A stretch of 64,000 bases of DNA from Pseudonocardiales bacterium (GTDB lineage Bacteria > Actinomycetota > Actinomycetes > Mycobacteriales > Pseudonocardiaceae): positions 13,088 through 77,087 of the forward strand of contig JBQTHE010000035.1 of the NCBI GenBank assembly GCA_052390115.1. Reading direction: 5' to 3'. The notes below the pieces were generated by a model, which saw nothing but the letters and a program-made list of their open reading frames with translations, searched no databases and was not told the origin of the DNA. The position numbers and the translations under genes were made by a program. This document shows, one piece after another, positions 29,977-63,863 of the stretch (positions within the stretch are counted from its first letter, which is position 1; the number at the start of each line of letters is the position of its first letter).

Positions 29977-30993
29977 TTGACGGGGAAACCGGGCATGATA
30001 AACACAATGGCGTCACTGGATTTTGCGCTCGACGCGGCACGGACAAACACATACGCGGACAACCCGGGTGCCTTCTTGGCTATCAACGACGGAAACTCGT
30101 ACTTCACCGAGCCCGACCTACCTGGCGTCGTCGTCTACCGCACGGCGGGCAGCTTTCTGGTCCAGTTCGGTGGTCCGTTCGCATCAGTCGATTCCTACGT
30201 CGAGCTGTTGCGGGCGTTTCGCGGGTTCGCCCGTGGGCAGAACCGGAGGATTGTTGGCATCCAGCTACAACGTGTCGACGCGGAGATCTACGCACGTAAC
30301 GATTTCACGGTTAATCAGGTCGGTGCATCGTATGCGGTGGACCTGAACCGATTCTCGCTGCAGGGTACCCGGTTCATGCGGTTGCGCAACAAGATCGCGC
30401 GGGCGCACAAGGCCGGCCTTGTCGTGTGCGAGACCAGTCTCGACAAGTGGAATGACGCCATGCGCGCCCTGGACCAAGTGTGGCTGCGCAGCAAGGGCGA
30501 GCACGTCAAGCAGCTTGAGTTCCTGGTGGGCCAGTACGGCGATGAGATGCAGCAGCACCGGCGGCTGTTCGTCGGGATGATAGATGGCGACCTGGCCGGC
30601 TACATCTCGTACGCGCCGGTGTACGGCACCCGGCCCGGCTGGATGCACGATCTGAGCCGGCGCATCCCCGGCAAACTGCCGGGAATCATGGAGGCTATCA
30701 ACAAGGCGGCCATCGTGACTTTCGTCGGCGAGGGCGTCGACTGGCTGCACTTCGGTTTCACGCCGTTCACCGGCCTCGACGACGCTTTGGAAATACCTGG
30801 ACACAGCCGAGGATTCAACAAGCTTATGCACCTGCTGTGGCAGCACGGCGAGGCCGTCTACCCGGCCCGGACCCAGCTGGCCTACAAAGAGAAGTGGGCG
30901 CAGCACGTGGTACTTCCTGAGTACATCGCCTTCGACGGGCCCGCAGACATCGCAGGGTTCGTGCACGTTTTTCGGGCGGCAGGCGCTCTGTGA
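29977..30993 (+). CDS. Standalone DUF2156 / MprF C-terminal-type (LPG_synthase_C) aminoacyl-tRNA-dependent transferase; VlmA-like candidate
   Basis: No TM flippase domain. VVVYRTAGSFLVQFGGPFAS, FSLQGTRFMRLRNKIARAHKAGLVV, LDQVWLRSKGEHVKQLEFLVGQY, GYISYAPVYGTRPGWMHDLSRR, YPARTQLAYKEKWAQHVVLPEYIAF. Start could be 29977, 29995 or 30007. Confidence 0.7.
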   Translation: MTGKPGMINTMASLDFALDAARTNTYADNPGAFLAINDGNSYFTEPDLPGVVVYRTAGSFLVQFGGPFASVDSYVELLRAFRGFARGQNRRIVGIQLQRVDAEIYARNDFTVNQVGASYAVDLNRFSLQGTRFMRLRNKIARAHKAGLVVCETSLDKWNDAMRALDQVWLRSKGEHVKQLEFLVGQYGDEMQQHRRLFVGMIDGDLAGYISYAPVYGTRPGWMHDLSRRIPGKLPGIMEAINKAAIVTFVGEGVDWLHFGFTPFTGLDDALEIPGHSRGFNKLMHLLWQHGEAVYPARTQLAYKEKWAQHVVLPEYIAFDGPADIAGFVHVFRAAGAL

Positions 30994-31052
30994 GCCACGC
31001 CGCCCGTCCCACGAATCGCCCGCTCAATCGAAGAAGGAAGGTGGGGTAGCCC

Positions 31053-31262
31053 ATGCCCATGGACGTCGAGCACGACACGACCGGCAGCGGCCGCGAGCAC
31101 GTCGACCAGCCGCGAGACCAGGCAGGGCACCACATGCTGGAGATGTTCGCGGCCGTCTGCGCCGCACCGGATGATCCGGGGGTGGCCGACCGCGCCAACG
31201 AGGCATTGCGTGCGCTGGAGGCCCCTCCACCAGCGACGTCTGCCCACGGATCCTTGACGTAA
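31053..31262 (+). CDS. Small acidic hypothetical protein (69 aa)
   Basis: RBS aaggaagg upstream of the ATG; GC3-biased; no motif recognised. Confidence 0.35.
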   Translation: MPMDVEHDTTGSGREHVDQPRDQAGHHMLEMFAAVCAAPDDPGVADRANEALRALEAPPPATSAHGSLT

Positions 31263-31270
31263 CGAGGAAC

Positions 31271-31357
31271 ATGCTTATGCAAGGCAAACGCCTGCTCGCC
31301 ACCGGCGTCCTCAACGAGAAGCCGATCGCCTACACCGCTGCGGGGCTCGCCCGATGA
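31271..31357 (+). pseudogene. 28-codon remnant of an enoyl-ACP reductase (FabI/InhA-type) N-terminus
   Basis: MLMQGKRLLATGVLNEKPIAYTAAGLAR* resembles the FabI/InhA start (L.GKR.LVTG....SIA..IA). Its stop overlaps the ATG of the next gene (ATGA). Confidence 0.4.
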
Positions 31358-31812
31358 GACAGTTCGCGGGGCTGGTCGAGCTCGGCGAGGCCGTGGGTCA
31401 GAGCCTCGGTACCAGCGACTGGCACGGGATCACCCAGGAGATGGTGGACCGGTTCGCCGAGAACACCGGTGACCGTCAGTGGATTCACGTCGATCTGGAC
31501 CGTTGCGCGGCCGGGCCGTTCGGCGCTCCGGTGGCCCACGGGTACCTCACATTGGCAATGGTCCCTGGCCTGATGGCCGAGGTGTTCCGTGTCGACGGTG
31601 TTGGTCTGGTACTGAATAAGGAGTTGCGCAAACTACGATTTTTCTCCCCAGTGCGGGTGGGCGACCGGGTAAGAACCAGCGTGGACCTGATCTCGGCCCG
31701 GCCGCGCCCGCGCGACTACTGGGAAGCGAGCTTCCGAGTCACCGCGGAGATCGAAAATAATGAAGCCCCCGCATTCAGGGCCGAAACTGTGTTCCTCTAC
31801 CAGCAGAGCTAG
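31354..31812 (+). CDS. MaoC-like (R)-specific enoyl-CoA/ACP hydratase-dehydratase
   Basis: FAENTGDRQWIHVDLDRCAAGPFGAPVAHGYLTLAM (hot-dog hydratase motif). Confidence 0.8.
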   Translation: MRQFAGLVELGEAVGQSLGTSDWHGITQEMVDRFAENTGDRQWIHVDLDRCAAGPFGAPVAHGYLTLAMVPGLMAEVFRVDGVGLVLNKELRKLRFFSPVRVGDRVRTSVDLISARPRPRDYWEASFRVTAEIENNEAPAFRAETVFLYQQS

Positions 31813-31822: not shown

Positions 31823-32692
31823 ATGAGCCCAGAACAGGTACCTGACTCGACCACTATCCGGCCGGGGGACGCCGACTCAACGACAGACCGAGGTAACCAG
31901 GAGAGAATCAGGTTCCTGTACCTCGGCGCGTTGGAGTGCTGGCTCGGTCGCCGGCCGGTGGAGATACGCGGCACCATCCAACGAACATTGCTGGCCGCGC
32001 TGCTTGCCGCCGGTTCCAAGCCGGTCTCGGTGGACGCGCTCGTTGAGGAGCTGTGGGGGGATAACCCACCGGCCAGGGCGGAGAATGCATTGCAGGCCCA
32101 CGTCAGCCGGTTGCGGAGAAAACTCCGCTGCGCCGGCGGCAATACCTCGGTCAGCTTGTCAAGCTTGCCATCAGGATACCGGCTGATGGTGTCCGAGGAG
32201 GACGTGGACGCGACCGCGTTCATGCGCGAACTCAACGACGGGCGTGGCCGGCCGAACACCGACGCCACCACGACCATCGCCAAGCTGCGTTCGGCGGTGG
32301 CGTTGTGGCGTGGTCCGGTGTTCGGCGGGCCACTTGGCGGTCCGATCTGCCAGGCCGCCGCCGCCAGGTACGAGGCCGCCCGGTCGGTCGCCGTTGAGCT
32401 GCTGTTCGACCTCGAGCTGGGGTGCGGCCGCCACACCGAGGTCATTCCGGAACTGAGTGAGTTGGTCGAGTCACCGTCGTTGAACGAACGGTTCTGCGAG
32501 CAGCTGATGGTCGCGCTGTACCGGTCCGGCCGGCAGACCGAGGCGCTGGAGGTGTACCGGCGGATGCGGATACGGCTCGACGCCGATCTCGGTGTCGAGC
32601 CCTCACCCACTCTGCGCAAGTACGAACGGGCGGTCCTGGTACATGATCCAGCGTTATGCACCGGCGCCAACTATGCCGTGTTGCGCGACTGA
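31823..32692 (+). CDS. SARP-family pathway regulator (OmpR-type winged helix plus BTAD)
   Basis: IRFLYLGALECWLGRRPVEIRGTIQRTLLAALLAAG, ALQAHVSRLRRKL, GYRLMV, LRSAVALWRGPVFGG, EQLMVALYRSGRQTEALEVYRRMRIRLDADLGVEPSPTL. Contains a TTA codon at 32654-32656. Confidence 0.85.
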   Translation: MSPEQVPDSTTIRPGDADSTTDRGNQERIRFLYLGALECWLGRRPVEIRGTIQRTLLAALLAAGSKPVSVDALVEELWGDNPPARAENALQAHVSRLRRKLRCAGGNTSVSLSSLPSGYRLMVSEEDVDATAFMRELNDGRGRPNTDATTTIAKLRSAVALWRGPVFGGPLGGPICQAAAARYEAARSVAVELLFDLELGCGRHTEVIPELSELVESPSLNERFCEQLMVALYRSGRQTEALEVYRRMRIRLDADLGVEPSPTLRKYERAVLVHDPALCTGANYAVLRD

Positions 32693-32717: not shown

Positions 32718-33164
32718 CTACCGTAGCACCGCCTGTGACTGAGTGACCTGCGCGACCCGGCGGCGACCGCCGTCCGGGTCAACGCGGTACAGGTCGGTCT
32801 GCACCACGATCACGGTGCGTCCGCTGTGAAGCGGGTGGGCTACGGCGACCACCACGCCCTCTCGGACGGCCGCGAAGAAGTTCGTCTTCAGCTCGATCGT
32901 CGAAGTCGCCGTGCCCGGTGGCAGGTTGAGGTAGGCACACATGCCAGCCACCGAATCGGCGAGACTGACCAGGGCACCGCCGTGCAGCACACCGGCCGCG
33001 GTGCACAGTTCGGCCGACCAGGGCAGCCGGCCGACCACCTCTGCCGGGGTGGCCGTGTCGATCTCGATGCCGAGTGTGCGGGCGAGCGGCATCATGTCTA
33101 GCAGGGTCTGCGCGTCAGCCGCCACATTCGCCTCCGGATGGTGAACGGGTTCACAGCGCACCAC
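32718..33164 (-). CDS. PaaI/4HBT-type hot-dog thioesterase
   Basis: GVLHGGALVSLADSVAGMCAYLNLPPGTATSTIELKTNFFAAV. Its start overlaps the stop of the upstream thioesterase gene. Confidence 0.75.
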   Translation of the reverse strand: MVRCEPVHHPEANVAADAQTLLDMMPLARTLGIEIDTATPAEVVGRLPWSAELCTAAGVLHGGALVSLADSVAGMCAYLNLPPGTATSTIELKTNFFAAVREGVVVAVAHPLHSGRTVIVVQTDLYRVDPDGGRRRVAQVTQSQAVLR

Positions 33165-33948
33165 GGACCGACCAGGTCAGCGCTTTGTTCTCGGCCAGCA
33201 GCCGGTGCAGATGCCTGCAGAAGTCCGAGGTGACGGCGAGGGCGTGGCTGTCGATGAAGAAGTGGCCGCCAGGGTACTCGCTATGACCTAAGTACCGTGG
33301 GCTGCGGGAGACCCAGGCCGTCATTGCGTCCGGTTCCTCCATCAGCGGGTCGGACTTGCCGCCATAGGACACCAACGTGCAGGACACCGGGGTGCCGTCG
33401 TCGCGGTACTGAGCGGCCACCGACAGATCGGCCCGCAGCGCCGGGATGACCATCGCGAGCATCTCCGGATTGTCATAGATGGCCGCCGGGAACGAGCCGA
33501 GTTTCTTGATCCACCCCACCATCTCGGACTCGGGCATCTTGACCTGCTCCTCGGTGGGTGCGAAGAAGCCCTTCGGCGCCCAGCCGGACATCCCGATCAG
33601 GACTGGACCGTTGATCCCGTCCTCGTCCATCCGAACCGTGAGCCGGTAGGCCAACTGCGCACCGAGACAGTGTCCGAAGAATGCAAAAGGGCGATCGTCC
33701 AGTTCATCGAGCACGGCGTGATACAACGCGTCCAGCAACGGGTCCCAGTCCGCATAGGTCATTTCCTCGCGGCGGTGGTGCCGACCGGGCAGCGTGACGG
33801 CCTGCGGGGCGATGTCCGCCGGCATCAGGTCGCTCCACTCCCGGTAGATAATCGCCCCGCTGCCGGCGTGCGGAAACAGGAACAGCCGGGCCTCCGCAGT
33901 TGGGGAGGGCTCGATGGGCTCGAACCAATGGCAGGCTGGAACAGTCAT
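33151..33948 (-). CDS. Type II thioesterase-family alpha/beta hydrolase with Cys in the nucleophile position
   Basis: ARLFLFPHAGSGAIIYREW; nucleophile elbow FFGHCLGAQLAY (canonical GHSMG); C-terminal YPGGHFFI. ATG at 33948. Confidence 0.75.
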   Translation of the reverse strand: MTVPACHWFEPIEPSPTAEARLFLFPHAGSGAIIYREWSDLMPADIAPQAVTLPGRHHRREEMTYADWDPLLDALYHAVLDELDDRPFAFFGHCLGAQLAYRLTVRMDEDGINGPVLIGMSGWAPKGFFAPTEEQVKMPESEMVGWIKKLGSFPAAIYDNPEMLAMVIPALRADLSVAAQYRDDGTPVSCTLVSYGGKSDPLMEEPDAMTAWVSRSPRYLGHSEYPGGHFFIDSHALAVTSDFCRHLHRLLAENKALTWSVRGAL

Positions 33949-34015
33949 CCCGGTGGCAGTGTTACTGATCACGTCACGATCTCCTTCGACAGGTGAGCCC
34001 TGTGGTTGTGGTACG

Positions 34016-35014
34016 TCAGCTGAGTGCACGCAGCGCCGGTAGCACAAACTCGGCGATGTCCTTCAACTGCGGCTCGGGGTTCAGCGAGCCGATCCGGATG
34101 ACGATGTGCCGGACGCCGGCACGCACGTAGTCGGCCAGCCATTCGGCGGAGTGTTCGGCAGTACCCCACCAGTACGCCTGGATCGCCGACATCATGTCCA
34201 GCGAACGACCGTAGTAGTGCTGAATGTAGTGCTCCAGCTCGGCTCGGGCCGCGGCCTGGTCCTGGTTCACGGTGATCGTCGCGTACAGTCCGGCGGTCAC
34301 CGCGTCGGCCGGCCGGCCGGCCTCCTGGGCGTTGGCCAGGATCTGCTGCCACGCCTGCCGATAAGCCGAGGCGGAGGGCAGGAAGGGCAGCCAGCCGTCG
34401 TAGTGCCTGGCCACTCGGCGCAACACCTGCGGTGTGTCGCTACCAGCCAACCACAGCGGCGGGCCCCCGGGCCGCAGCGGCCGAGGCAGCCGGTCCAGAC
34501 CATCTGCCGTGCAGTACCGGCCGGTGAAGTCGGTCGGGGACCCGGGCTCGCCGCTATCCCAGGCCCGTCGCCACAGCGCGACGATCTCGTCTAACCGCCC
34601 GGCGCGACCGCGGAAGGACACGCCCACCGCCGCGAACTCCTCCTCGGTCTCCGGGATCGGGAAGCCGGAACCGAGGCCGAGCACCAGGCGCATACCTGCC
34701 ACGTGATCGAGACTGGCGATCATGTTGGCGCCGATCAGCGGGTGCCGCAGGGCAGGGGTCAGCGCCGCGGTGCCCAGGGTGATTCGATTGGTCACCGCGC
34801 CGGCCGCGGCGAGCACGACTATGGGGTCGAGGCGTGGCCGGGCTACCAGGGAGTCGCCGGTCCACAGCGAGTCGAAACCGAGCAGTTCGGCCTGTCGGGC
34901 GAAGTCGAGCAACGGCGAGGCCGCATGGGTTCCGATGATGGCCTGCTCCCTGGTCGGTAGCAGGACACCGATGCGTGGCGGTTCCTTGGGGGTGACCACG
35001 GTTGGTTCCTCCAC
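34016..35014 (-). CDS. Luciferase-like monooxygenase (LLM) family oxidoreductase, probably F420-dependent
   Basis: RIGVLLPTRE...GFDSLWTGDSLVARPRLDPIVVLAAAGAVTNRITLGTAALTPALRHPL...LVLGLGSG. Confidence 0.75.
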   Translation of the reverse strand: MEEPTVVTPKEPPRIGVLLPTREQAIIGTHAASPLLDFARQAELLGFDSLWTGDSLVARPRLDPIVVLAAAGAVTNRITLGTAALTPALRHPLIGANMIASLDHVAGMRLVLGLGSGFPIPETEEEFAAVGVSFRGRAGRLDEIVALWRRAWDSGEPGSPTDFTGRYCTADGLDRLPRPLRPGGPPLWLAGSDTPQVLRRVARHYDGWLPFLPSASAYRQAWQQILANAQEAGRPADAVTAGLYATITVNQDQAAARAELEHYIQHYYGRSLDMMSAIQAYWWGTAEHSAEWLADYVRAGVRHIVIRIGSLNPEPQLKDIAEFVLPALRALS

Positions 35015-35026: not shown

Positions 35027-36631
35027 TCAGGCCCCGACAGTCCGCGGTTCGGTGCTGGAGGCCTCGGCCAGCAGCCTCGTGCGAACCTCGCGCCGGAGGA
35101 CCTTGCCGGACGGATTGCGCGGCAGGTCGGTCGCGAAGTGGTAAGCGGTGGGGATCTTGTAGTCGGCGAGGGGGCGACGCAGGAACAGCATCAACTCGCG
35201 AGGGGTGACCGAGGCGCCGGGCCGGAGCACGACGCACGCATGCACCGCCTCGCCCCACCGCGGATCCGGCATTCCCACCACGGCGACATCGGCCACCGCG
35301 GGATGGTCACCGAGCTGTTTCTCCACCTCGGCCGGGTAGATGTTCTGCCCGGCCACGATGATGGTGTCGTTGATCCGGTCGCACAGATACAGGTACCCGT
35401 TCTCGTCAAGGTATCCTGCGTCGCCCATGTGCAGCCAGCCGTCGATGATGGTGCGCGCGGTGGCCTCCGGCTTGTTCCAGTAGCCGAGCATCCTGGCCGG
35501 GGTGCGGATGCACACCTGCCCGATCTGACCGGGCGGCAACATCCGGCCGTTCTGGTCGATCACCTTCAGTTCGTTGCCCGGGCAGGCTTTCCCCGCCGCC
35601 CGCAACAGCGGGCTGCCTGGCTTATGTGCCTCCGGCGGTAGGCACACCGCGACGCTGCCGGCCTCGGTGCTGGAATAGATCTGCCCGAACTCGCAGGCGA
35701 ACATGTCAAGGCACCGGCGCAGCAGTGCCTCGGAAATCGGCGCCGCGCCGTAGGCGATCTTGCGCAGGGAAGCGAACGTCTCCCTGGTCACTCCGCGTTC
35801 GGCCAGCATCATCTGCAGCATCGCCGGTGCGGCGAAGGTGGTCGTCACGCCCAGGGTCCGCACTAGCCGAACCGCTTCTTGAGGCTGGAAAAACCGCATG
35901 ACCACATTGGTCGCACCGGCGTTGAACCCGTGCATGAACCAGCCGATGCCAGCGATGCCCAAACCGGGCAGCGAGATGAGATTGACGTCGTCGGGCAGCC
36001 AGTCGATCCAGGACAGGCGGGCGTCTCGCATCGCGGCCGGCAACGTGAAGAAGGCGCGGTTGGCCAACACCACGCCCTTGGGCAGGCCGGTGGTACCGCT
36101 GGTGTAAATCTGAACCACCGCGTCATCCGGCCCAGCGCCGTCATCCACATCGGACTCCACAGCGCTGGCGCTCCAAGCACGCAGGCCGGAACCGTGGTCG
36201 CGGTCCCCGGGCTCATCGAGCCGGACTACGTCGCGAAGGCCGGCTAGGTCCGCCCGCACGCCCTCGACGACCCCCCAGAAGTCGCTTTCCACGAACAGGA
36301 GCTCGGCTCCTGAGTCGCGCAGTATGTGGTCCACCTCGTCGGCTGTCAGCCGCCAGTTCACCGGTACCAGCACCGCACCCAGTTTGGCGCAGGCCAGGAT
36401 CGCGGCGTAGTAATGCTCGGACTCTCGGGCGAGATAGCCCACTCGGGTTCTCCGGCCGACGCCCGCGCAGCGCAGCGCATGCGCGATGCGGTTGCTCGCC
36501 AGGTGAAGCTCCCGGTACGTGACGGTCCGGTCCTCGCAGATGATCGCAGGATGGTCGGTGCGATCGCGGGCATGGGCCGAGGAGGTCGCAGCAAGAGTCC
36601 ATCGCCTCGTCTGGTTCACCGGGTCCTCCAT
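35027..36631 (-). CDS. AMP-dependent acyl-CoA / acyl-AMP ligase (FadD-type)
   Basis: IYTSGTTGLPKGV, YGAAP, GWLHMGDAGYLDENGYLYLCDRINDTII, PRNPSGKVLRREV. Start at 36631 or 36655. Confidence 0.85.
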   Translation of the reverse strand: MEDPVNQTRRWTLAATSSAHARDRTDHPAIICEDRTVTYRELHLASNRIAHALRCAGVGRRTRVGYLARESEHYYAAILACAKLGAVLVPVNWRLTADEVDHILRDSGAELLFVESDFWGVVEGVRADLAGLRDVVRLDEPGDRDHGSGLRAWSASAVESDVDDGAGPDDAVVQIYTSGTTGLPKGVVLANRAFFTLPAAMRDARLSWIDWLPDDVNLISLPGLGIAGIGWFMHGFNAGATNVVMRFFQPQEAVRLVRTLGVTTTFAAPAMLQMMLAERGVTRETFASLRKIAYGAAPISEALLRRCLDMFACEFGQIYSSTEAGSVAVCLPPEAHKPGSPLLRAAGKACPGNELKVIDQNGRMLPPGQIGQVCIRTPARMLGYWNKPEATARTIIDGWLHMGDAGYLDENGYLYLCDRINDTIIVAGQNIYPAEVEKQLGDHPAVADVAVVGMPDPRWGEAVHACVVLRPGASVTPRELMLFLRRPLADYKIPTAYHFATDLPRNPSGKVLRREVRTRLLAEASSTEPRTVGA

Positions 36632-36651: not shown

Positions 36652-39600
36652 TCAACTCGTCGGCTCGGCCGCCAACTGCCCGTTGACGAATTCGGTCAGC
36701 TGTTGCACTGACGGGTAGTCGAAAGCCAGCGAAGCCGGCAATGCCAGCCGGAAGGCCGACTCGAGGCCGCTCTTGACTTCCATGGCCATGAGCGAGTCGA
36801 ATCCGAGCGACACCAGTTCCGCCGTGGTGTCCACCGACTCCGCGTCGTCACAGTGCAGTGCGGCGGCGACCTTGCCGCGCACCAGCTCGGTGACCACGGC
36901 CAGCCGCTCCGCCTTCGGCTTGGCCAGCAGCGCCGTCAGATCCAGACCACTGTCCGGTGTCTCGGCGCGGCGCGCCAGCCGGGAATACAGCGCGTTCACG
37001 TTCGAGGAGGCCCTAGCGATCCGGTCCCAGTCGTACTCACCCACCACCCGCTGCGCCACCGACCGGGACAGCAACTGCCCCAGTGCGCGCAACCCTCGCG
37101 CTGGCGAGAAGAACCGGATACCGCCCCGTTCGACCTCGCGGCTGAGGTTGTCGTCAAGCCGGGCGGACATGCCGACGCTGGCCCAGGCGCCCCAGTTCGT
37201 GGCGAGTCCGGGCAAGCCCTGCCGTTCGCGCCAGGTGGCCAGGCCGTCCAAGAAGGCGCTCGCCGCAGCATAGTGGGCCTGAGTCACGCCACCGATCACC
37301 GAGGCGATCGAGGAGTACACCACGAAGAAATCGAGGTCGGGCAGGTCCCGGCTGGCTTCGTGCAGCAGCCAGCCGCCGTACATCTTCGGCCGTAACTGCT
37401 CGTCGATGACGTCCCAGGTCAGCGAGCTGATCAGCGACTTTCCGATCTCACCCGCCGCGTGCACGATTCCGCCCAGCGGATGTTCCCCGGCCCGCAGTTG
37501 GGCGAAGACCCTGGCGACGTCGTCCGCCGAGGCGATGTCGGCGGACAGCACGGTCACCTCGGCCCGCTCTGACAGCGCGTCCAACACCCCGCTCGCCTCC
37601 GGGGCCGGTGTACCGCGCCGGCTGAGCAGGGCCACGTGGCGCGCCCCCAGGTCGACCAGTTTCCGGGCGGTGACCAGACCGAGACCGCCGAGACCGCCGG
37701 TCACCAGGTAGGTCCGGTCAGCCCGCACCGCGAATTCGCCGGCCAAGGCCGGTGTGGTCTCGTCGGCGAGCAACCGTCGGACGTAACGCTGGCCGTCCCG
37801 GTAGGCCACTTGGAACTCGTCTGTGTTCTCCGCCCGCCACTCGGCGAGCAGGGCCGACGGATCGCTGTCCGCGGGCAGGTCGACCAAGGTGGCGCCGTAA
37901 CGCGGGTATTCGTTGAGCAGTGTGGGACCGAAACCCCAGAGGCTGCTGGCGGCCAGCCGCTCGCCACCGTCCGGCCGGTCGACGGGCAGCAATTGGGCGC
38001 CTTCGGTGACCAGCCACAGCCGCAGCGCCCGGCTGGGCGCGCCGTCCAGGGCGGCCACCACATCGAGCAGCTCCCGGTAGTTCTGCTCGCACTCGGTGCG
38101 CAGGCGGTCCGCGGACACCGCTCCGCCGGCCGGCCGCCAGAACCAGCAGGCGTCGGTCACTGACGGATCTGCGAGCGCCGCGGGCAAGGCGACCACACCA
38201 TCTACCGTGGACACCCGGATGCCGACTAAGTCCTCTTGCTCTGCGAGTTCCGGCAGGCGGTACCGATCGCCGTTGACGACCACCACATGTCGAGCCCGGA
38301 TCGTCGGCTGCGTGGTCGCGCTCTGCCGCAACCAACTCAGCCGGTGCAGGAAGTGCCCATGGCGGGCCGACCCGGTCGCGCGGGTCAGCATCACTCCGGT
38401 CAGCTCGGCGACCGGCGCCTCCCCCTCCAGCAGCAGGAGGTCCGCGACCCGCCGATCGTCCATATCGGATCGACCGGCACGCACCTTGGCCACCAGCCGC
38501 AACCGCCGACCGCGCGGCTTCTTGAACAGCCGGACCGCCTCGACACCGGTCGGACTGAACACCGGACCGTCACGGTCTACAGCGGTGAGCGCCTGCATCG
38601 CGCCGTCGAGCACCTCCACCGGCAGGTGCTCGACGGCGGCGGCATCCCGGCAGCCCAGGTCAGCAGTCAGCACTCCCTCCGGATTCGCGCGTACCTCGGT
38701 GAGCAGCCGGAACCGCTGGCCGTACCGCCGGTCGACCGAGGCGAAGTCGGTGTAGATGTCCTCGTGGCCGACCACCTCCTCGGTCGCACCTGCCTCGTCC
38801 AGCAGTGCCCGCAGCCGATCGCAGGGCACTGCAGGCGTCGCCGCGGTCGCCAGGGTCGCGGTGGCGTGGCGACGCTCCTGGTCGTCGACGGTGCTGACCA
38901 ACTCGACGTCGACATCGCCCTCGGCCGTGGGCACCAACCGCGTCCGCAGTGCGACGACGGCGTCCTCGGCCAGCGACAGCGGCTCGTGCAGCACCAGGTC
39001 GCGGATGACCCGCCCGGTGTGGCCGTAGACGGCGTCCTGCAGTGCCAGCAGGGCCTCGACGTATCCGGCGGCGGGCAGCATGACCGACCCGTCCACCACA
39101 TAGTCGGCCAGGTACTCCGGGCGGGTGGCCGAGCACTCGGTGCGGAATTCCCGGCTTCCGGCCGGCCGGCCCTCCGCGGCCGGCACCTCCTGACCAAGTA
39201 ACGGGTGGTGCACTGGACCACCCGTTACCGGACCCCGGCCGGTCTTCGCGGCTCCGTTGATCGGCAGCCAGCACCGCTTGCGCTGGAACGGATAGGTGGG
39301 CAGGGCCAGCTTCTCCAGCCGTCGGTTGGCATGCACGCTGGCCCAGGACACCGGCATGCCTGCGGTATACAGCTCGGCCAGCGAGCGCAAGGTGGTGTTC
39401 CCGGCCCGGTCGCGACGGTGCAGGCTGGCGAACCAGAGATGGTCCTCGCCCTGCAGACACCGCTTGGCCAGCGCGGTCAGCGCGGTAGCCGGACCGATCT
39501 CGATGAAGGCGTGGCGGCCTCGCCGTGCGGCCGCCCGCATGCCCTCCATAAACAGCACCGGCGCACCGATATGCCGCACCCAGTACTCCGGGTTGGCCAC

Positions 39601-41973: not shown

Positions 41974-42278
41974 CCCACGCCCCCTCGGGACAACAGATCG
42001 GTCAGGTGTGTCACCAGGTCGCCGACCGTCGGGCGGTTGAACAGCACGGTCGCGTCGATGCCGATGTCCAGCGCGTCCTCCAGACGCTGTCTGATCTCGG
42101 TCAGTCGCAGCGAGGTCAGACCCAGATCGAAGTAGCTGGCGTCCAGCCGGAGTTCCTCGTCCTCCGGCATCAGCAGGAGACTCTTGAACTGCGCGATCAC
42201 GAGGTCCTCGAGTGCGTCACGACGCTCAGACCCGGGCAGTTGACTGAGCTGAGTGCGGGTGCGGAATGGTTGAGTCAT
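41958..42278 (-). CDS. Discrete carrier protein (ACP/PCP)
   Basis: FDLGLTSLRLTEI (phosphopantetheine Ser). 16-nt overlap with the PKS start. Confidence 0.75.
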   Translation of the reverse strand: MTQPFRTRTQLSQLPGSERRDALEDLVIAQFKSLLLMPEDEELRLDASYFDLGLTSLRLTEIRQRLEDALDIGIDATVLFNRPTVGDLVTHLTDLLSRGGVGCRTS

Positions 42279-44190: not shown

Positions 44191-44294
44191 GCGCTCGGTG
44201 GCGGTCACTCGTTTGCGTGGTCGGACTCGCGCTGAGCAGGCTCCTTACCTCTGACGTAATCGATGTGCCAGACGTTCTCTGCGATCGTGTTTTC

Positions 44295-45014: not shown

Positions 45015-45096
45015 ACGTCGTCAGCAGCACATCGATACCGTGCCGGCACCGGCGAAATAATCGAAGAAATCTTTTCTTTCTGAAGGAGATTTGGCT

Positions 45097-52969: not shown

Positions 52970-53202
52970 CAGACCGTCGCACTCCGGCTTGTGACCAGGT
53001 CCACGACCGACTCCAGCCGACCGGCTTGCGCTAGGTCGTCGTCGGTCACCCGGACGCCGATCTCCTTCTCGATGACCAGGGCGAGCTCGACCAGGTCCAG
53101 CGAGTCGAGGCCGAGGTCCCTCAGCGTGGCCTCCGGCTCGATGTCCTCGGTCGGCACCTGGAACTTGCGCTCCATGATTTGCTTGAGGTGCTCGTACATC
53201 AA
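52969..53202 (-). CDS. Acyl carrier protein
   Basis: LRDLGLDSLDLVELAL. ATGA overlap with KASIII. Confidence 0.85.
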   Translation of the reverse strand: MMYEHLKQIMERKFQVPTEDIEPEATLRDLGLDSLDLVELALVIEKEIGVRVTDDDLAQAGRLESVVDLVTSRSATV

Positions 53203-54323: not shown

Positions 54324-55300
54324 GGAGCGGACCGTGCACTCGAGAGCACGCCGTCCAGACCCATATAGGTCATCCGGACCTCGGCCATCTGGTCTGTCCA
54401 CCGCTGAGCCATGTCGTAGCGCTCCTCGGGCGTGGTATCCAGCATCCGCTGGCCCGGCCAGATCTCGTAGTCGCCGATCAGTCCCGCATGCTGTGCCATG
54501 CCCTGCTGGAATAGTTCCTCGCGGGTCATCACGTACTTGCGGTCCGGCACCGCGTCCCACAGCCGCTCACCCTCGGCGAGTATCTCCAGCAGCCGGGGCC
54601 GGTACTCTGGGTGCGCGCTCAGGTGGTCTCGGATGATCGAGCTGCCGACGGTGAGGTGGCGGATCTCGTCGATGGCCGCGCCGCGAGCGATCTCGCTGGC
54701 CGCCGGGTCGAGACGATCCCATTTGCGTTCGCTGAGCTCGGCCGCCGGCGCGAGCACACCCTCGATCACGATGGTGAAGATGGCGACTCCGCCGACGAAG
54801 TCGCCCTCGTCGCGCATCACTCGCAGGGCGAACTCCTCCACTGGGTCGAGCACCTCCGCGGTGTAGTCCGCGGACATCTCGGCGATGGTGGGCAGCAGCT
54901 TGTTCGCCGGCACACCTATGTCGACCAGATGGTTGCGGAACACCATGGCGTGCCGGGCCTCGTCGACCAGCTGCGTGGTGTAGAACTCGATCTCCGGAAT
55001 ACCCGGCGCTGAAGCGACGTAGTGGGCCAGAATGCGGGTCGCCTTCTCCTCGGCTACCGAGCGGTATCCAAGCTCAAGCAACAGAGCTTCGCGCAGCGGG
55101 CCCGGTTCGCGCATGTGGTCTGGGGTGATCACGCCGACCGCATACCCTTTCGCCGCCCTGCCGCGCAGGGTGCCCTGGGCGACCGAGCTGAGCCAGTACG
55201 CAAGATCGCACTGCTTCGCGGTCAGGACGAGGTTCATCGCGCCGTCCAGCAGCCCGGGAGCGGTGTCCCAGCCTGCCTCGCGCGGGATGGCGTCGGTCAT
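54320..55300 (-). CDS. Ferritin-like di-iron carboxylate oxygenase (candidate N-oxygenase / azoxy-forming enzyme)
   Basis: Two E...ExxH units: EIEFYTTQLVDEARHAMVF and IEGVLAP...AIDEIRHLTVG. RBS gaggaagg. ATGA overlap with the flavin reductase stop. Confidence 0.7.
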   Translation of the reverse strand: MTDAIPREAGWDTAPGLLDGAMNLVLTAKQCDLAYWLSSVAQGTLRGRAAKGYAVGVITPDHMREPGPLREALLLELGYRSVAEEKATRILAHYVASAPGIPEIEFYTTQLVDEARHAMVFRNHLVDIGVPANKLLPTIAEMSADYTAEVLDPVEEFALRVMRDEGDFVGGVAIFTIVIEGVLAPAAELSERKWDRLDPAASEIARGAAIDEIRHLTVGSSIIRDHLSAHPEYRPRLLEILAEGERLWDAVPDRKYVMTREELFQQGMAQHAGLIGDYEIWPGQRMLDTTPEERYDMAQRWTDQMAEVRMTYMGLDGVLSSARSAP

Positions 55301-55887
55301 CGCGTAAGCCTTCCTCTCGGTGTCAGCTGGATTCCGAGGTGCGGACCGAGGCAGCCGAGGTGGTTGGTCGGGCGGAAATCGTCGGAAAGGGCGCACAGCG
55401 ACCCGCCGTGCAGGGTGCTGGCGAAACTGAGCAGTGGGGAACCGACGCCGGTTTCGCCCGACGCCACGACGGCGAGCAGGAGGCAGTGGTCGCCGGCCGG
55501 CAGCCAGCGGCTGAGCCGGCACGTCAGGTAGGACAGCGAGCCGTTGATCAACGGGGCATCGCTGGTCGAGTCGGTCCGGCAGCGGATGCCGTCGAACTGC
55601 GCGCTGCCGCGGGGCCGGTCGGGGTGGGCAAACCATCGGGCCAGGGCAGCCTGCTCGGTGTTCAGCACGTTCACCGAGAACCATTGCCGGTCGCGAACGC
55701 GCCGGAGAAACGACGAGCTTCGGGCCAGGCTCACTCCGATGAGCAACGGTTCCCTGGACACCGCGGCCAGCGCGCTGACCGTCGTGCCGTGTGCGCCGCG
55801 CTCGTCGGCGAGGGTGAGCACCGAAACCCCGGAGGTGAACCGGCGGACCGCTCTATGGTGGTTTTTGGTCACTACCTCGGTGATCAT
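55297..55887 (-). CDS. NAD(P)H:flavin reductase (HpaC/VlmR-type)
   Basis: RAVRRFTSGVSVLTLADERGAHGTTVSALAAVSREPLLIGVSL...FSVNVL. Confidence 0.8.
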   Translation of the reverse strand: MITEVVTKNHHRAVRRFTSGVSVLTLADERGAHGTTVSALAAVSREPLLIGVSLARSSSFLRRVRDRQWFSVNVLNTEQAALARWFAHPDRPRGSAQFDGIRCRTDSTSDAPLINGSLSYLTCRLSRWLPAGDHCLLLAVVASGETGVGSPLLSFASTLHGGSLCALSDDFRPTNHLGCLGPHLGIQLTPRGRLTR

Positions 55888-55901: not shown

Positions 55902-56414
55902 TCAGCCGGCCGCGGTCTGCCGGGCGGTACGGGAGGCCTCCGGTGTGTCCTGGGCGGTCGGCTCGACGTCGCTGCGGGATTCCAAGGCGGCACGCAGCTT
56001 CAGGTACGCCGGGTGCGGCTGGGGTTCGAAGGACAGGTTGAACGGCTTGAGGAAGTTGCCGAACAGTCCCCGGTCACCGAACAGGTGGATGGGGATGGCC
56101 AGTAGGGCCCACTCCCACCCGACGAACAGCACCCACAGCGCTATCACCGCGCTCTGGGTGATCAGGCTGTGCATGGTGTTGTAGAGCACGTAGTAGATCT
56201 TGGGGATCCGTTTGGTGCTGCTGCGGTGCCAGGCGATGGCGCCAGGGAGGTAACCGATGAGATCGATGTAGACGAACAGGACCACCGCCGGCAGCCAGCG
56301 GACCTGGTCGATGTGCACGACGAACAGGGCGACTGCGACGGCGAACAACACCAGGTACTCGGCGCGGTGCAGGCGGTAGGTCGTGCGACTCTCAAAGGGA
56401 TTGGCCTGGTCCAT
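55902..56414 (-). CDS. Small integral membrane protein (DUF4260-like, ~4 TM); candidate VlmO-type N-N-forming component
   Basis: RLHRAEYLVLFAVAVALFVVH, LPAVVLFVYIDLIGYLPGAI, YYVLYNTMHSLITQSAVIALWVLF, ALLAIPIHLFGDRG. Assignment to a VlmO-like role is by context only. Confidence 0.55.
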   Translation of the reverse strand: MDQANPFESRTTYRLHRAEYLVLFAVAVALFVVHIDQVRWLPAVVLFVYIDLIGYLPGAIAWHRSSTKRIPKIYYVLYNTMHSLITQSAVIALWVLFVGWEWALLAIPIHLFGDRGLFGNFLKPFNLSFEPQPHPAYLKLRAALESRSDVEPTAQDTPEASRTARQTAAG

Positions 56415-56420: not shown

Positions 56421-56921
56421 TCACCTCTCAGCGGGCGCGCCGGCGACCGGGGCCGGCACGAGTTCCAGTTCGCCGTCCAGGTGCACGTCGTCGAACATGC
56501 CGACCACGACCCAGGCGACGGTCTCCTTGATGACGCGTTCGGCGATCGGGTCGAGAATGCCCTCCAAACTCGGGATGCCGAAGTCGAAGTCGACCTCGAA
56601 GTGCAACTCGGTGTCCTCGCCGGAGTGGCGCAGTGTCCAATGTCCGGTGAACTCGTCGAAATCCCCGTTCTGCTGTTCGAACTTGATCACCAGATCGTCC
56701 CGCAGGAACTGCTCCTGTTCGGTCCAACGCAGTAGTCCGCTGCGGAAGCGCAGCACCCAACTCGACCGGCCGGTCGGCGCGGGCCGTGTCTGGTGCACGA
56801 CCGCGGACTGCACGTGCGGGGCCAGTTCCGGGTACCGTTCGAACTTGACCACCGAGTCATAGACCGTCTCCGGGGACACGCCCCTGATCAGCGCGTTCAG
56901 CTGGACATGCCGCATGGTCAT
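56421..56921 (-). CDS. SRPBCC (START/cyclase-dehydrase fold) protein
   Basis: VSPETVYDSVVKFERYPELAPHV...WVLRFRSGLLRWTEQEQF...FEQQNGDFDEFTGHWTL. ATGA overlap with the aminotransferase stop. Confidence 0.7.
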   Translation of the reverse strand: MTMRHVQLNALIRGVSPETVYDSVVKFERYPELAPHVQSAVVHQTRPAPTGRSSWVLRFRSGLLRWTEQEQFLRDDLVIKFEQQNGDFDEFTGHWTLRHSGEDTELHFEVDFDFGIPSLEGILDPIAERVIKETVAWVVVGMFDDVHLDGELELVPAPVAGAPAER

Positions 56922-58204
56922 TTACCGCCTTCCGGCATGCGAGCACGCCGGGAGATCAGATCTCTGGTCGCGCGGTCGAATGATCGGATCAGGAACTCCA
57001 CGTCGGAGTCGGTGAGAATGGCCGGTGGGGTGAATCGGACCGTCGCGATGCCGTTCATCGAATGGTTGGCTATCACGCCGTGGTTGAACAGCTCGATCAA
57101 CATCTCGCCGGCAAGGCCGGCCTCGACGAATTCGACACCGATCAGCAGGCCTTTGCCGCGGACGTCGACCACCAGGTCGCCGCAGTTCTCGCGCGCGATG
57201 CGCTCGATCTCCGGCAGCAGTAGGGCGCCGAGTTCGGCGGCCTTGGTGATCAATCGGTCCTCCTTGATAGCCTGGATCGCGCCCCGCACGGCGGCCATCA
57301 GCACCGGCGCCCCGGAGAAGGTGGCGGTGTGCACGTACGGGTCCTTGTCGAACGGCGAGAAGATCTGCCGGTTGGCCACCGCGGCGGACACCGGCAGCAC
57401 GCCGCCGCCCAGTGCCTTGCCGGTCAGCAGCACGTCCGGCACCACACCTTCGAGGTCGACACCCCACCATTCGCCGAGTCGGCCCATGCCGCTCTGCACC
57501 TCGTCGATGATCAGGAAACCGTCGTGCTTACGGCACAAGTCCGCGACGCTGGTCAGGTAGCCGGGCGGCGGGATGATCACGCCACCCTCGCCCTGCACCG
57601 GTTCGACGATCACGCCGACCTCACCTGGATGCGCCGCCAGTTCGCGTTCCAGCGCCTCGTTGTGGCCGAACGGCACGTGCGTCACGTCGGGCAGCAGCGG
57701 CTGGAACGGCTTCTGGTAGACGTCCTTGGCTGTCACGGACAGAGCACCGAGCGTCTTTCCGTGATAGCCGTGGTGCATCGAGACCAGCCGCCGCTTGCCG
57801 TGCGCCCTGGCCAGCTTCAGGCCGGTCTCCACAGCTTCGGCGCCGGAGAGCGCGAAGTGCACCCGGTCCATGCCGGGTGGGGTGACCGAGGCCAGCGCCT
57901 CGGCCGCCCTGGCCACCGTCGGTTCGAGCAGGATCCTGGTGGAGATCGGGTGGGCGTGCAGTTGGCTGAGCACGGCGTCCATCACGATCGGATGCCGTGC
58001 GCCCATGATGAACACGCCGTACCCGCCGCAGTTGAGGAACTCCCCGGCATCGCTAGTGCGCAGCCACGCGCCGGCGGAGGCGACCTCCATGTGGCTGCCG
58101 AAAAGTTCGGCGAGCGTGGCCCGCCCCTTGCTCAGATGCGCCCGGTACAGGTCGAGGATCTCCGCCCCGGAGTCGACCGGCGCGGCTGTGTCGATCACGG
58201 TCAC
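56918..58204 (-). CDS. Class III PLP-dependent (omega-)aminotransferase
   Basis: GGYGVFIMGARHP, HGYHGKTLGALS, IIDEVQSGMGRLG, LLTGKALGGG (PLP Lys). Confidence 0.85.
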   Translation of the reverse strand: MTVIDTAAPVDSGAEILDLYRAHLSKGRATLAELFGSHMEVASAGAWLRTSDAGEFLNCGGYGVFIMGARHPIVMDAVLSQLHAHPISTRILLEPTVARAAEALASVTPPGMDRVHFALSGAEAVETGLKLARAHGKRRLVSMHHGYHGKTLGALSVTAKDVYQKPFQPLLPDVTHVPFGHNEALERELAAHPGEVGVIVEPVQGEGGVIIPPPGYLTSVADLCRKHDGFLIIDEVQSGMGRLGEWWGVDLEGVVPDVLLTGKALGGGVLPVSAAVANRQIFSPFDKDPYVHTATFSGAPVLMAAVRGAIQAIKEDRLITKAAELGALLLPEIERIARENCGDLVVDVRGKGLLIGVEFVEAGLAGEMLIELFNHGVIANHSMNGIATVRFTPPAILTDSDVEFLIRSFDRATRDLISRRARMPEGGK

Positions 58205-58249: not shown

Positions 58250-59386
58250 TCAGGAAAGTCGCAGTGGCCCGCCGGCGAAGTAATCCAGAAGCGGTTCGGC
58301 CGCGCTGCTCCGCGACGGCGGGTGGAAGGCCAATGCACGCACCGCGCAGGACAGGTAGGCGATATCGGAGGACCGGATGAAGGCGATGCCGCCGAGCAGC
58401 TCCACGGCCAGATCGGTGGTGGCCGCCAAGGCTGCCTGCACGGCGTAGCGGGCCACCAGCACGGCGGCGACCGCGTCGTCGCCGGACAGCCCGTCGTCGA
58501 CGGCGCGGGCCACTCCCTCCAACTGGCCGACGGCGGACTCGAGGCCCACCGCGACCGCGGCCCGGTCGGTCACGCTTCCCCTGCCACCATCCAGCACTTG
58601 GGCGGCAAGCGCGCTGGCCGCGCCGACGTAGACCGACGAGATCAGCATGACGAACCACACGAAGCCCGCGGTCTGCAGGTCGTCCAGGCGGTGCGGATCG
58701 TCGGGCCTGGTACGGATGACCAACTCGTCGGGCACTCGGACGTCGGTCAGCCGGACCTCGTCGCTCTGCGCGGCGGCCAGCACCCAGCTGGACCAGAAGG
58801 GATGCACCGAGATCCCCGGCGAGTGCGCCGGAACTAGCGCGACCGCCAGGGAATCCGTACCTTCCGTGGACAGCGCGACGCTCGCGGTCAGCAAGTCCAT
58901 CGACCCGGACAGGCTGCAGGGCTTCTTGCTGCCACTGAGCATCCAGTTGTCGCCGTCGGGTCGGGCGGACACGCTGGGCAGCAGGATGTTCTGGTTCGGC
59001 TTGCCCTCCGCCCAGCCCGAGGCCATCAGCAGGCCGTCCGGTACCACCCTGGACAGCAGGTCGATCTGCAGGCCGGTGAGCCGGTCGGCGGTGCGGGCAA
59101 GGGAGAACAGCATCGCCGCGGTGAAGTGGTGCATGGTGACGGCGGCACCGAGCGACGGCGAGCACGAGGACAGGCCGCGCATCACGCGGATCGCTTCCAA
59201 CGCGCCGGCGCCCGCTCCGGAGTACTCCGGCGGCACCAGCAGACCGACGCCGCCGAACTTGCGAAACAGCCCGATCACCGGGCTGCCGACGGCCTCGCGT
59301 TCCAGCAACGGAATCTCGTCGAGGGCCGCGCACAGCCCGGGGTGGTGCTTCTCGCAGACCTGCCGTGCCGCGTCCAGCGAGCGCAT
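58250..59386 (-). CDS. Acyl-CoA-dehydrogenase-fold flavoprotein; candidate two-component amine N-hydroxylase (VlmH-like)
   Basis: RBS aaggag before ATG 59386. ACAD-like architecture (FGGVGLLVPPEYSGAGAG..., WMLSGSKKPCSLS, C-terminal helical bundle). A flavin reductase is encoded in the same operon. Confidence 0.65.
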   Translation of the reverse strand: MRSLDAARQVCEKHHPGLCAALDEIPLLEREAVGSPVIGLFRKFGGVGLLVPPEYSGAGAGALEAIRVMRGLSSCSPSLGAAVTMHHFTAAMLFSLARTADRLTGLQIDLLSRVVPDGLLMASGWAEGKPNQNILLPSVSARPDGDNWMLSGSKKPCSLSGSMDLLTASVALSTEGTDSLAVALVPAHSPGISVHPFWSSWVLAAAQSDEVRLTDVRVPDELVIRTRPDDPHRLDDLQTAGFVWFVMLISSVYVGAASALAAQVLDGGRGSVTDRAAVAVGLESAVGQLEGVARAVDDGLSGDDAVAAVLVARYAVQAALAATTDLAVELLGGIAFIRSSDIAYLSCAVRALAFHPPSRSSAAEPLLDYFAGGPLRLS

Positions 59387-59457: not shown

Positions 59458-61113
59458 TCAGCAGCCGAACATGGCGTCACGCGGGCGTATACCGGTGGCG
59501 ATGCTGACCCCCTGCAGATGGGAGGTCTTGAGGATCGGGTAGTTGGCCTCGCCGAACACACCGCCGGTCAATCCCGTGCCACCGTGGGTGGGCAGGATCG
59601 GCAGGAAGCCGATGTGCGAGTCATTGATCTTGAGCAGGCCGGCGTTGCGGACGTCGCGCACGAAGCGGTCGATGACCTCGGTCGAGGCCGACCACAGCGA
59701 GTTGCGCAGCCCGTACTCGTTGGCGTTGACGAACCCGATGACCAGATCGAGCAACACCTCGTCGGGTGCGTGTTCGGGCACCACCACCGGCAGCATCGGG
59801 TAGAAAGTCTCGTGCCTGACCACCGCCAGTTCCCGCGCGCCGGACATCCCGTCGACCCGCAGCACGGTCGGTTCCAGGAACACCCCGGTCTCCGACGGCG
59901 TGCCGTCCAGCTCCACCCGCCGGCCGCCGGTGATTACCCGCGCGCCCTGCTCGAGCGCCTGGCGCAATTGGGCGAAGAACTTCTCGCTGCGGCGGACCGG
60001 GGACAGCAGCACGTCCTCGTCGTCGGGATAACCGGGCCGGATCCGGGCGGCCTGCTCCCGGAGCCTGGCTAGCAGCTCGTCAGCGATGTCGGGGTGGGCC
60101 ACCACGTACTTGGGCACCATGCAGATCTGGCCGGACCCGAAGAAGCACTCGGTGATGGCTTCGGCCGCCATGTCCAGGTCGCCGTCGTGCCACACGACGA
60201 GGCCGTCGTTGCCGGCGAGTTCAAGGATCGGCTTCTTGCCCCTGGCCACGCACTCGGTTTGCAGCCGCAGACCCTCTTCGCTGCCGCCGATGTAGAAGAT
60301 GTCGTTGACGAGCGGGTGTTGCAGCCATCGATCGAGGATCTGGCGCGGCGGCCCGCAGACAACGTTCAGCGTGCCGGCAGGCGCGTCCAGATCCTCCAGC
60401 AGCGGCACCACCAGATCCCGGAGCACGTACATGCTGCTCAGCGCGATGCTGCGGGGCGCCCGCACCACCACGGCGTTGCCAGCCATCAGCGCCAGCACGG
60501 CCAGCGCTGCGCTGGGCGCCGGCGCGTTCTGCGGCGGATTCAAGCACACCACACCGTCGGGCTGGTACCGCACGATCAGCCGACGCGAGCCGTACGCGAA
60601 CTCGGTGTACATCTGCTGCGCGTACCAGGAGCAGCTCTCCTGGCTGAACACCTGCATCAGACAGGTGAACTCCCATTCGGCCAGCTTGCGGGGGTGCGCC
60701 TCGGCCACGAGCATGCCCAGGAACTCCTCACGGTGGCGCACGAGCTTGTGCCGGAACAGTTCGCCGAGGCGCAGCCGCTCGGCCAGCGGTACGCCAGCCC
60801 ACACCGGTGCGGCGGCCGCCGCGGCCTCGATGGAGGCGTCCACCTGCTCCGCGCTGGCTACCGCGCAGCGGCCGACCACGTAGGGGTGGCCGCCGGCGTC
60901 GGAGTGCGGGTCCTGCTCGAGTGCCCGCTTGAGGCGCACGCTAGTGAACACGTCCTCCAGCAGGGAGCGGGCGGTCACCGTGTACACCCAGGCGATTCCC
61001 TCCACGTCCCTGCCGGCGATATAGGAATGGTAACTTCGCAATCCGACAGTATTAATCGCCTCGGCGTCCTCCAGATCCACACTGAGGATTTGGACGTTAT
61101 AGTCGGCAACCAC
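59458..61113 (-). CDS. Aldehyde dehydrogenase-superfamily enzyme (possible acyl-thioester reductase / aldehyde-forming)
   Basis: ILELAGNDGLVV (catalytic Glu region) and FFGSGQICMVPKYVV (catalytic Cys). 551 aa with N- and C-terminal extensions. Confidence 0.75.
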   Translation of the reverse strand: MVADYNVQILSVDLEDAEAINTVGLRSYHSYIAGRDVEGIAWVYTVTARSLLEDVFTSVRLKRALEQDPHSDAGGHPYVVGRCAVASAEQVDASIEAAAAAAPVWAGVPLAERLRLGELFRHKLVRHREEFLGMLVAEAHPRKLAEWEFTCLMQVFSQESCSWYAQQMYTEFAYGSRRLIVRYQPDGVVCLNPPQNAPAPSAALAVLALMAGNAVVVRAPRSIALSSMYVLRDLVVPLLEDLDAPAGTLNVVCGPPRQILDRWLQHPLVNDIFYIGGSEEGLRLQTECVARGKKPILELAGNDGLVVWHDGDLDMAAEAITECFFGSGQICMVPKYVVAHPDIADELLARLREQAARIRPGYPDDEDVLLSPVRRSEKFFAQLRQALEQGARVITGGRRVELDGTPSETGVFLEPTVLRVDGMSGARELAVVRHETFYPMLPVVVPEHAPDEVLLDLVIGFVNANEYGLRNSLWSASTEVIDRFVRDVRNAGLLKINDSHIGFLPILPTHGGTGLTGGVFGEANYPILKTSHLQGVSIATGIRPRDAMFGC

Positions 61114-61226: not shown

Positions 61227-62732
61227 TCAGCCGGCGAGCGCCAGGGTTAGTAGTCGGGACAGCTCTTCGGCCGAACAGGTGGAAAGCGAAGCGAATGTGT
61301 CCGCCACCTCGACCGGCCCACCGTGAGTGAGGAACTTGGTGCGCATCAGTTCGGCGTGCGCGGCGCGGGTGTGGGGGCCGGCGGCACCGATCGGGATGTC
61401 CCGCTGCCTGGTGAACGACCGGCCGTCTGCGAGGTGCACGGTGACTCGGGCCGGGGTGCTCTTGGTCGCGGTCTGGTAGGTCTCAGCAGCCGGGCCGATC
61501 TCGCCGGCCAGCGTCGCTAACTCGGCGCCGCCGAACTTCGCCAGCCAGCAGACAGCGCGTTTCCCGGCCTGGCGGACCGCCTCGCCGAAGGGCGCGACGG
61601 ACTCGAGTAGGCACCTGGTCATCTCCGGGTCGTGCACCAACTGGACCGCTTCGGCCAGCGCCCACCTGCGTGGATCGCTGATCGCGGGCTCAGCGAAGTC
61701 GGCGACGGTCAGGTCACCGGTCAGCAGCGTGGTGGCCACCGCATAGGGGGTGGCCAGCAGCAGCGAGCTGATGGGGGTATCCGCACCGTTGAGGTAGTCT
61801 TCGGCCTTCCGGCCGACGAAGAGGGTATACAGCGAAACGTCGACCACGATCCGTGTCACGTGACGTTGCGGGGATGCGTTGACCGCGACGAGATCGCGGT
61901 GCAGTTCGATGGCGCAGTCCACCGCCGCATCGATACCCGGCCCACCCGGACGGACCTTGAACGACAGCGTGTCGGTATGCCACCGGTGCCCCAGCCCGTC
62001 GGTCACCGCCTCGGGCAACGGCACCGAGGCGAACCGAGCGAGGAAACCGTCCGGATGCTCAAGGATGTCCGGCAAGCCCACCATCTCGGCCGCTGCCGCA
62101 TCGCACGCGTCCATGGCCGTACGCACCGGCGTGAACGCGTGCAACGCCTTGGCATCGCTGCCAAGGAAGCCGTGCATCGACGGCCACATCGGCGTGGTGA
62201 ACGACAGGCCAAGCGCGTCCACCCACCGCCGGGCTGGCGCAGACTCGCTGCGCAGACGGCCGGCCACAGCGCCGGCCAGGTGCGTGTGCAGGGCGCTCTG
62301 TCCTCGGAACGGTCCGAGCGTAGCCGCCGCGGTGATACGGGCGGCGCACTCGTTCGCGGCGATCACCGCGGTGAGCAGCGCGGGGCCGTCCATCCCCAGA
62401 GCGTAGGTGTAGGCAGTCGGGACGGACACGGTCGAACCGCCGAGGTGGCCGGCGTAGGCGGTGTCGTCCAGGTTCAGCCAGGAACCCAGGCCGGCCAGCA
62501 CGCACGCCGACTGGCGTGGATCGGCCTGCAGCGGGGGCCCGAAGGCCCGGACCAGCTTGCGGCCCAACGGATGGATCAGCCCAGCCCGGATGGCGGCGAG
62601 TTGCGAGAGCACCTGACTGCCGGCCAGCGCGACCACTCTCGGCGGTACGTCCGCCAACCGTAGGGTGCTGGCCCACTCGGAGAGTTCCCCTGTCAGCGTC
62701 GCGTGCGCGGTCCGGGTTCCCATGGTGGTCAT
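61227..62732 (-). CDS. MmgE/PrpD-family protein (VlmK-like candidate lyase/dehydratase)
   Basis: The ATG shares ATGA with the kinase stop. LSEWASTLRLADVPPRVVALAGSQVLSQLAAIRAG is a typical PrpD-family N-terminus; 501 aa. Confidence 0.75.
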   Translation of the reverse strand: MTTMGTRTAHATLTGELSEWASTLRLADVPPRVVALAGSQVLSQLAAIRAGLIHPLGRKLVRAFGPPLQADPRQSACVLAGLGSWLNLDDTAYAGHLGGSTVSVPTAYTYALGMDGPALLTAVIAANECAARITAAATLGPFRGQSALHTHLAGAVAGRLRSESAPARRWVDALGLSFTTPMWPSMHGFLGSDAKALHAFTPVRTAMDACDAAAAEMVGLPDILEHPDGFLARFASVPLPEAVTDGLGHRWHTDTLSFKVRPGGPGIDAAVDCAIELHRDLVAVNASPQRHVTRIVVDVSLYTLFVGRKAEDYLNGADTPISSLLLATPYAVATTLLTGDLTVADFAEPAISDPRRWALAEAVQLVHDPEMTRCLLESVAPFGEAVRQAGKRAVCWLAKFGGAELATLAGEIGPAAETYQTATKSTPARVTVHLADGRSFTRQRDIPIGAAGPHTRAAHAELMRTKFLTHGGPVEVADTFASLSTCSAEELSRLLTLALAG

Positions 62733-63715
62733 CGACGAGAACCGTCCAGGGTGGCCATGCCGCTTCGGCACAGTGCGGGAAGGACCCTCGGCAGCACCTG
62801 CAGGGTGAACCGGGTCGCCGTGCCCGTGCGCAGCTCACCGTCGTGCTCGAAGCTCAGCGGCTCGCCGTCGGTCCGTTCGACGGTGACGCGCCGGCCCCGC
62901 GCATACACCACACCCGGCTCGCGCAGGTGTGCACCATTGCGTGTCAGATCGGGTACGTCCACGGGATCGATCTCGCTACCGATCACGCACACATCCAGCA
63001 AACCGTCGTCGAGCACCGAACGGGGCAACACCTGGTAGCTACCGCCACGATGGCGGCCCCCGCCTACGTTGGCCAGCACGGTCTTGCCTGCGTGAACCAC
63101 GGCACCGTCGACGAGGACGCGACCGGGATACGGCACGTACTCAGCCGCGGTCCTGGCCAGCGCGATCCGGTAACGTTCCCGGCCCACGATCGGGACGGAC
63201 CTGACTGTGATCAGAGCGTCGGCGATCAGGCCCGAGCACGCACCGAGCAAGACCAGGGCGTCGAGTTCGACCAGCCGGGCGATGTCGAGCAGGCAACGCC
63301 GGGAACCGTTGCCGCTCAACGCGGCGGGCACCGCCTCCGGCCACGGCAAGTCGCCCCACTGCGCGAGGTAGCTGGAGTTGCCGGTACCGGCCGGGATGAT
63401 CAGCAACGCAGGAAACACGTCCCCGGTGCCCGCCGACAGCAGACCTTGTACCACCTCGCGGACCGTGCCGTCGCCGCCAACCGCGATCACCACGTCGGGT
63501 CGGCGGCTGACCGCCTCGGTGGCCGCCTCGGTGGCCGCCTCGGTGGCCGCCAGGGTGGCGTCACCGCGCTCGGTAGTCCAGCGGACCGACAGCCGGTGGA
63601 CGTGCGGCCGACACAGCTCGACCAGTTCTGCGACTAGATCTGGGCTCACTGTGCCCGCAGCCGGATTCGCTATGACCAGAGCGGCGGAGAACGGCCGACC
63701 GTTCACGTCAACCAT
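62729..63715 (-). CDS. Diacylglycerol-kinase catalytic-domain (LCB5/YegS-type) kinase (VlmJ-like candidate)
   Basis: ALVIANPAAG ... VVIAVGGDGTVREVVQGL (GGDGT motif). RBS gggag upstream of ATG 63715. Confidence 0.8.
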   Translation of the reverse strand: MVDVNGRPFSAALVIANPAAGTVSPDLVAELVELCRPHVHRLSVRWTTERGDATLAATEAATEAATEAVSRRPDVVIAVGGDGTVREVVQGLLSAGTGDVFPALLIIPAGTGNSSYLAQWGDLPWPEAVPAALSGNGSRRCLLDIARLVELDALVLLGACSGLIADALITVRSVPIVGRERYRIALARTAAEYVPYPGRVLVDGAVVHAGKTVLANVGGGRHRGGSYQVLPRSVLDDGLLDVCVIGSEIDPVDVPDLTRNGAHLREPGVVYARGRRVTVERTDGEPLSFEHDGELRTGTATRFTLQVLPRVLPALCRSGMATLDGSRR

Positions 63716-63776
63716 GACTCAGAACTCCCTCGCGGCCATCGTGTGCGGGTGGGATGCACACCGAACGGGCTAGCTG

Positions 63777-63863
63777 CGGAGAGGGCAGGATTCGAACCTG
63801 CGCAGGCACCAGCCTTCCGGACGCACGCGCCCAGACCCGATAGGCCACTACGGGTACCTCTCC
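63777..63863 (-). tRNA. Class II (Ser-type) tRNA-like gene with non-canonical 8-nt anticodon loop; anticodon undeterminable (specialised tRNA or pseudo-tRNA)
   Basis: Hand fold of the minus strand: GGAGAGG-TA-CCCG-TAGTGGCCTAT-CGGG-T-CTGGG-CGCGTGCG-TCCGG-AAGGCTGGTGCCTGC-GCAGG-TTCGAAT-CCTGC-CCTCTCC-G. The acceptor stem (7 bp), D arm, long variable arm (AGGC/GCCT), T arm and G73 are all good. The anticodon stem has two G-U pairs; the loop has 8 nt, no U33 and no Ser anticodon. CCA is not encoded. Confidence 0.6.

What the first reader, a model, noticed from the sequence alone, without database searches (positions are those of the whole stretch)
29977..63863. 34-kb island: a valanimycin-type N-N/azoxy toolkit grafted onto dedicated fatty-acid and polyketide machinery
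The island holds one member of almost every protein family known from the valanimycin (vlm) pathway.
- MprF-C/DUF2156 aminoacyl-tRNA-dependent transferase (VlmA type), 29977-30993.
- ACAD-fold oxygenase (58250-59386) plus flavin reductase (55297-55887), VlmH/VlmR type.
- Di-iron oxygenase (54320-55300) and small membrane protein (55902-56414), the types reported for VlmB/VlmO.
- DAG-kinase-like kinase (62729-63715) and MmgE/PrpD protein (61227-62732), VlmJ/VlmK type.
- SARP regulator (VlmI type) and MFS exporter (VlmF type).

Instead of an amino-acid decarboxylase, the amine seems to come from lipid metabolism. That part comprises KASIII/ACP/KS/AccD, an ALDH-type reductase, an omega-aminotransferase and a His-box desaturase.

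A second operon adds a KS-AT-DH-KR-ACP PKS, a discrete ACP, an AMP-ligase, an LLM oxidoreductase and two thioesterases.

Fourteen genes from 63715 to 49175 lie on one strand. Six junctions are ATGA or TGATG overlaps (62729-62732, 56918-56921, 55297-55300, 54320-54323, 53199-53202, 52969, 51752-55).

Predicted product: a long-chain, probably unsaturated, alkyl azoxy or hydrazine compound linked to a dehydro-amino acid. Aliphatic azoxy clusters are known (valanimycin, elaiomycin, azodyrecin). To my knowledge the added PKS module, the desaturase, the missing SerRS and the adjacent aberrant tRNA are not part of the described versions.
Basis: partly seen in the sequence, partly recalled or inferred. 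Interest (0 to 1): 0.9.

Follow-up and report, generated by a model that had tools for sequence, protein, structure and literature searches.

The report
Azoxy gene cluster with anticodon-less tRNA
This is a gene cluster for an azoxy (N=N-O) lipid antibiotic of an already known and widespread type, but at its edge sits an odd serine-tRNA look-alike with no anticodon that recurs in many such clusters and may be a private serine carrier for the pathway.

Summary
Window 29995-63863 carries about 30 co-located genes that include the five-gene aliphatic azoxy core (VlmA, VlmH, VlmR, VlmO and VlmB types). It also has a VlmJ/K-type pair, a KASIII/ACP/KS set, an ALDH plus aminotransferase, a desaturase, and an AMP-ligase/ACP/KS-AT-DH-KR-ACP PKS operon.

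The azoxy reading is well supported. The VlmB-type protein is about 68% identical to PDB 6d9f. The VlmO-type protein keeps D51, H82, H110 and D114.

Most of the novelty claim is not supported. The published KA57-A cluster is listed as "azoxyalkene and type I PKS". Azodyrecin clusters have a desaturase and no aaRS. The same operon is colinear in dozens of actinomycete species. As a cluster, this is a new member of a known kind.

The "aberrant tRNA" (63775-63863, minus strand) is the real surprise. It is a class-II tRNA-Ser-like cloverleaf whose anticodon arm is a hairpin with a 3-6 nt loop. Copies lie in 40 of 80 related genome loci, often in tandem, at the 5' ends of cluster operons. On metagenome contigs, aberrant copies sit with azoxy-cluster genes 60 to 11, against 2 to 16 for canonical tRNA-Ser.

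My best guess, untested, is a dedicated non-decoding seryl carrier for the VlmA-type transferase. I found no published description.

The parts
29995..30993 (+). VlmA-type aminoacyl-tRNA-dependent transferase (LPG_synthase_C/DUF2156), 332 aa
   Evidence: Pfam PF09924, E 6.5e-53. The 332-aa gene call comes from the 99%-identical contig L081. Homologues of 55-77% identity lie beside VlmB/O/H/R genes in 51 of 80 loci.
31050..31262 (+). small ORF of about 70 aa, function unknown
   Evidence: No Pfam hit. A 69-aa gene is called at the same place in L081, and 51-aa genes in L082 and L083. Whether it is a real gene is uncertain.
31354..31812 (+). MaoC-type (R)-hydratase/dehydratase
   Evidence: Pfam PF01575, E 1e-21. 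It holds the same position in L081, L082 and L083.
31823..32692 (+). SARP-family activator (VlmI type)
   Evidence: Pfam BTAD, E 2.3e-41, plus Trans_reg_C. The 289-aa gene call is from L081.
32718..33125 (-). 4HBT (hot-dog) thioesterase
   Evidence: Pfam PF03061, E 2.4e-15. Homologues of 51-62% identity occur in L004, L011, L013, L014, L019, L031, L062 and L079.
33151..33972 (-). type II (alpha/beta) thioesterase
   Evidence: Pfam PF00975, E 2.2e-29.
34016..34999 (-). luciferase-like monooxygenase/oxidoreductase
   Evidence: Pfam PF00296, E 7.1e-59. Homologues of 64-75% identity occur in L004, L007, L012, L015, L062 and L079.
35027..36619 (-). AMP-dependent ligase. Inferred to activate the azoxy carboxylic acid for loading onto the discrete ACP.
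   Evidence: Pfam AMP-binding, E 3.3e-79. It lies next to the PKS here and in L005, L081 and L082. The substrate is an inference.
36652..41973 (-). type I PKS module KS-AT-DH-KR-ACP, 1773 aa
   Evidence: Pfam domains. Motifs DTACSS and HGTGT (active KS), GHSIG...HAFH (malonyl-type AT), HPLLGQEVP (DH motif one residue short of HxxxGxxxxP) and GFDSL (ACP). Homologues of 55-65% identity lie next to the azoxy operon in about 25 loci.
41958..42278 (-). discrete ACP (ACP1) upstream of the PKS
   Evidence: Pfam PP-binding, E 9.1e-14. It always travels with the PKS in related loci.
42624..43025 (+). SnoaL-like protein
   Evidence: Pfam SnoaL_2, E 1.3e-8. Homologues lie next to MFS, ACP1 and PKS in L056, L068 and many metagenome contigs.
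43137..43922 (-). MmyB-like HTH regulator
   Evidence: Pfam MLTR_LBD, E 5e-22, plus HTH_31.
44217..45014 (+). TetR-family regulator
   Evidence: Pfam TetR_C_33, E 6.5e-24. The start codon is uncertain.
45091..46317 (+). cytochrome P450 (tailoring, role unknown)
   Evidence: Pfam p450, E 5.1e-22.
46336..47901 (+). MFS transporter (VlmF-type exporter)
   Evidence: Pfam MFS_1, E 2.7e-48.
47937..48776 (+). alpha/beta-hydrolase
   Evidence: Pfam Abhydrolase_1, E 1.5e-28.
49175..50269 (-). membrane fatty-acid desaturase (AzdT/Ady9 type). Inferred to install the 1'-alkene next to the azoxy group.
   Evidence: Pfam FA_desaturase, E 3.9e-42. The start was re-assigned to ATG 50269. Homologues of 54-67% identity occur in about 20 loci.
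50292..51755 (-). acyl-CoA carboxylase carboxyltransferase subunit (AccD-like)
   Evidence: Pfam Carboxyl_trans, E 4.3e-160. It is rare among relatives: L009 and L010 at 75%, L021 at 51%. In L001 a SerRS gene occupies this position.
51752..52972 (-). FabF-type ketosynthase
   Evidence: Pfam ketoacyl-synt, E 4.2e-50. It is colinear in about 50 loci at 60-83% identity.
52969..53199 (-). ACP (ACP2) of the dedicated fatty-acid set
   Evidence: Pfam PP-binding, E 5.4e-16. It has a DSL motif and an AGGAGA site before ATG 53199.
53199..54323 (-). KASIII (FabH-type) starter ketosynthase
   Evidence: Pfam ACP_syn_III_C, E 1.7e-33. It sits directly downstream of the VlmB-type gene in about 55 loci.
54320..55300 (-). 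VlmB-type non-haem di-iron oxidase (hydrazine to azo to azoxy)
   Evidence: PDB 6d9f/8wvr 'Putative VlmB homolog', E 3.3e-138, residues 2-319 aligned, about 68% identical by my reading of the alignment, with both DEARH and DEIRH motifs kept. There are 118 relatives in species-representative genomes.
55297..55887 (-). VlmR-type NAD(P)H-flavin reductase
   Evidence: Pfam Flavin_Reduct, E 1.2e-25. It lies between the VlmO- and VlmB-type genes in most loci.
55902..56414 (-). VlmO-type integral membrane N-N bond-forming enzyme (ester to hydrazine)
   Evidence: No Pfam hit. D51, H82, H110 and D114 are invariant in 79 homologues. These are the four residues reported essential in VlmO. There are 1401 homologues.
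56421..56921 (-). SRPBCC/polyketide-cyclase-like protein, role unknown (lipid binding?)
   Evidence: Pfam Polyketide_cyc, E 7.8e-22. It is present in every fatty-acid-type locus, between the aminotransferase and the VlmO-type gene.
56918..58204 (-). class-III aminotransferase (aldehyde to primary alkylamine, inferred)
   Evidence: Pfam Aminotran_3, E 3.5e-83. It is the most conserved protein of the operon, at 68-84% identity.
58250..59386 (-). VlmH-type ACAD-fold flavin monooxygenase (amine N-hydroxylase)
   Evidence: Pfam Acyl-CoA_dh_N/M. The nearest PDB entries are DszC monooxygenases, E 3.7e-9. Homologues of 56-79% identity were found in 71 of the 80 loci; the rest lack it within the fetched range.
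59458..61113 (-). ALDH-family enzyme. Inferred to release the acyl chain as an aldehyde.
   Evidence: Pfam Aldedh, E 3e-61. The GQIC and ELAGND motifs are present. It is colinear in all fatty-acid-type loci. The direction of the reaction is not established.
61227..62732 (-). VlmK-type MmgE/PrpD protein (phosphate elimination to an exo-methylene)
   Evidence: Pfam MmgE_PrpD N and C domains. It is paired with the kinase in more than 20 loci. The VlmJ/K-like pair is reported for azoxy clusters.
62729..63715 (-). VlmJ-type DAGK/YegS-like kinase
   Evidence: Pfam DAGK_cat, E 1.1e-18, plus YegS_C. It overlaps the PrpD gene by ATGA.
63775..63863 (-). anticodon-less class-II tRNA-Ser-like gene, 89 nt, 59 nt upstream of the kinase gene on the same strand
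   Evidence: The cloverleaf minimum-free-energy fold is -45.7 kcal/mol (z -2.8), with an 8-bp 'anticodon' helix closed by CGUG. It scores 89.1 bits against family model R1. ARAGORN does not call it, and Rfam finds nothing at gathering thresholds.

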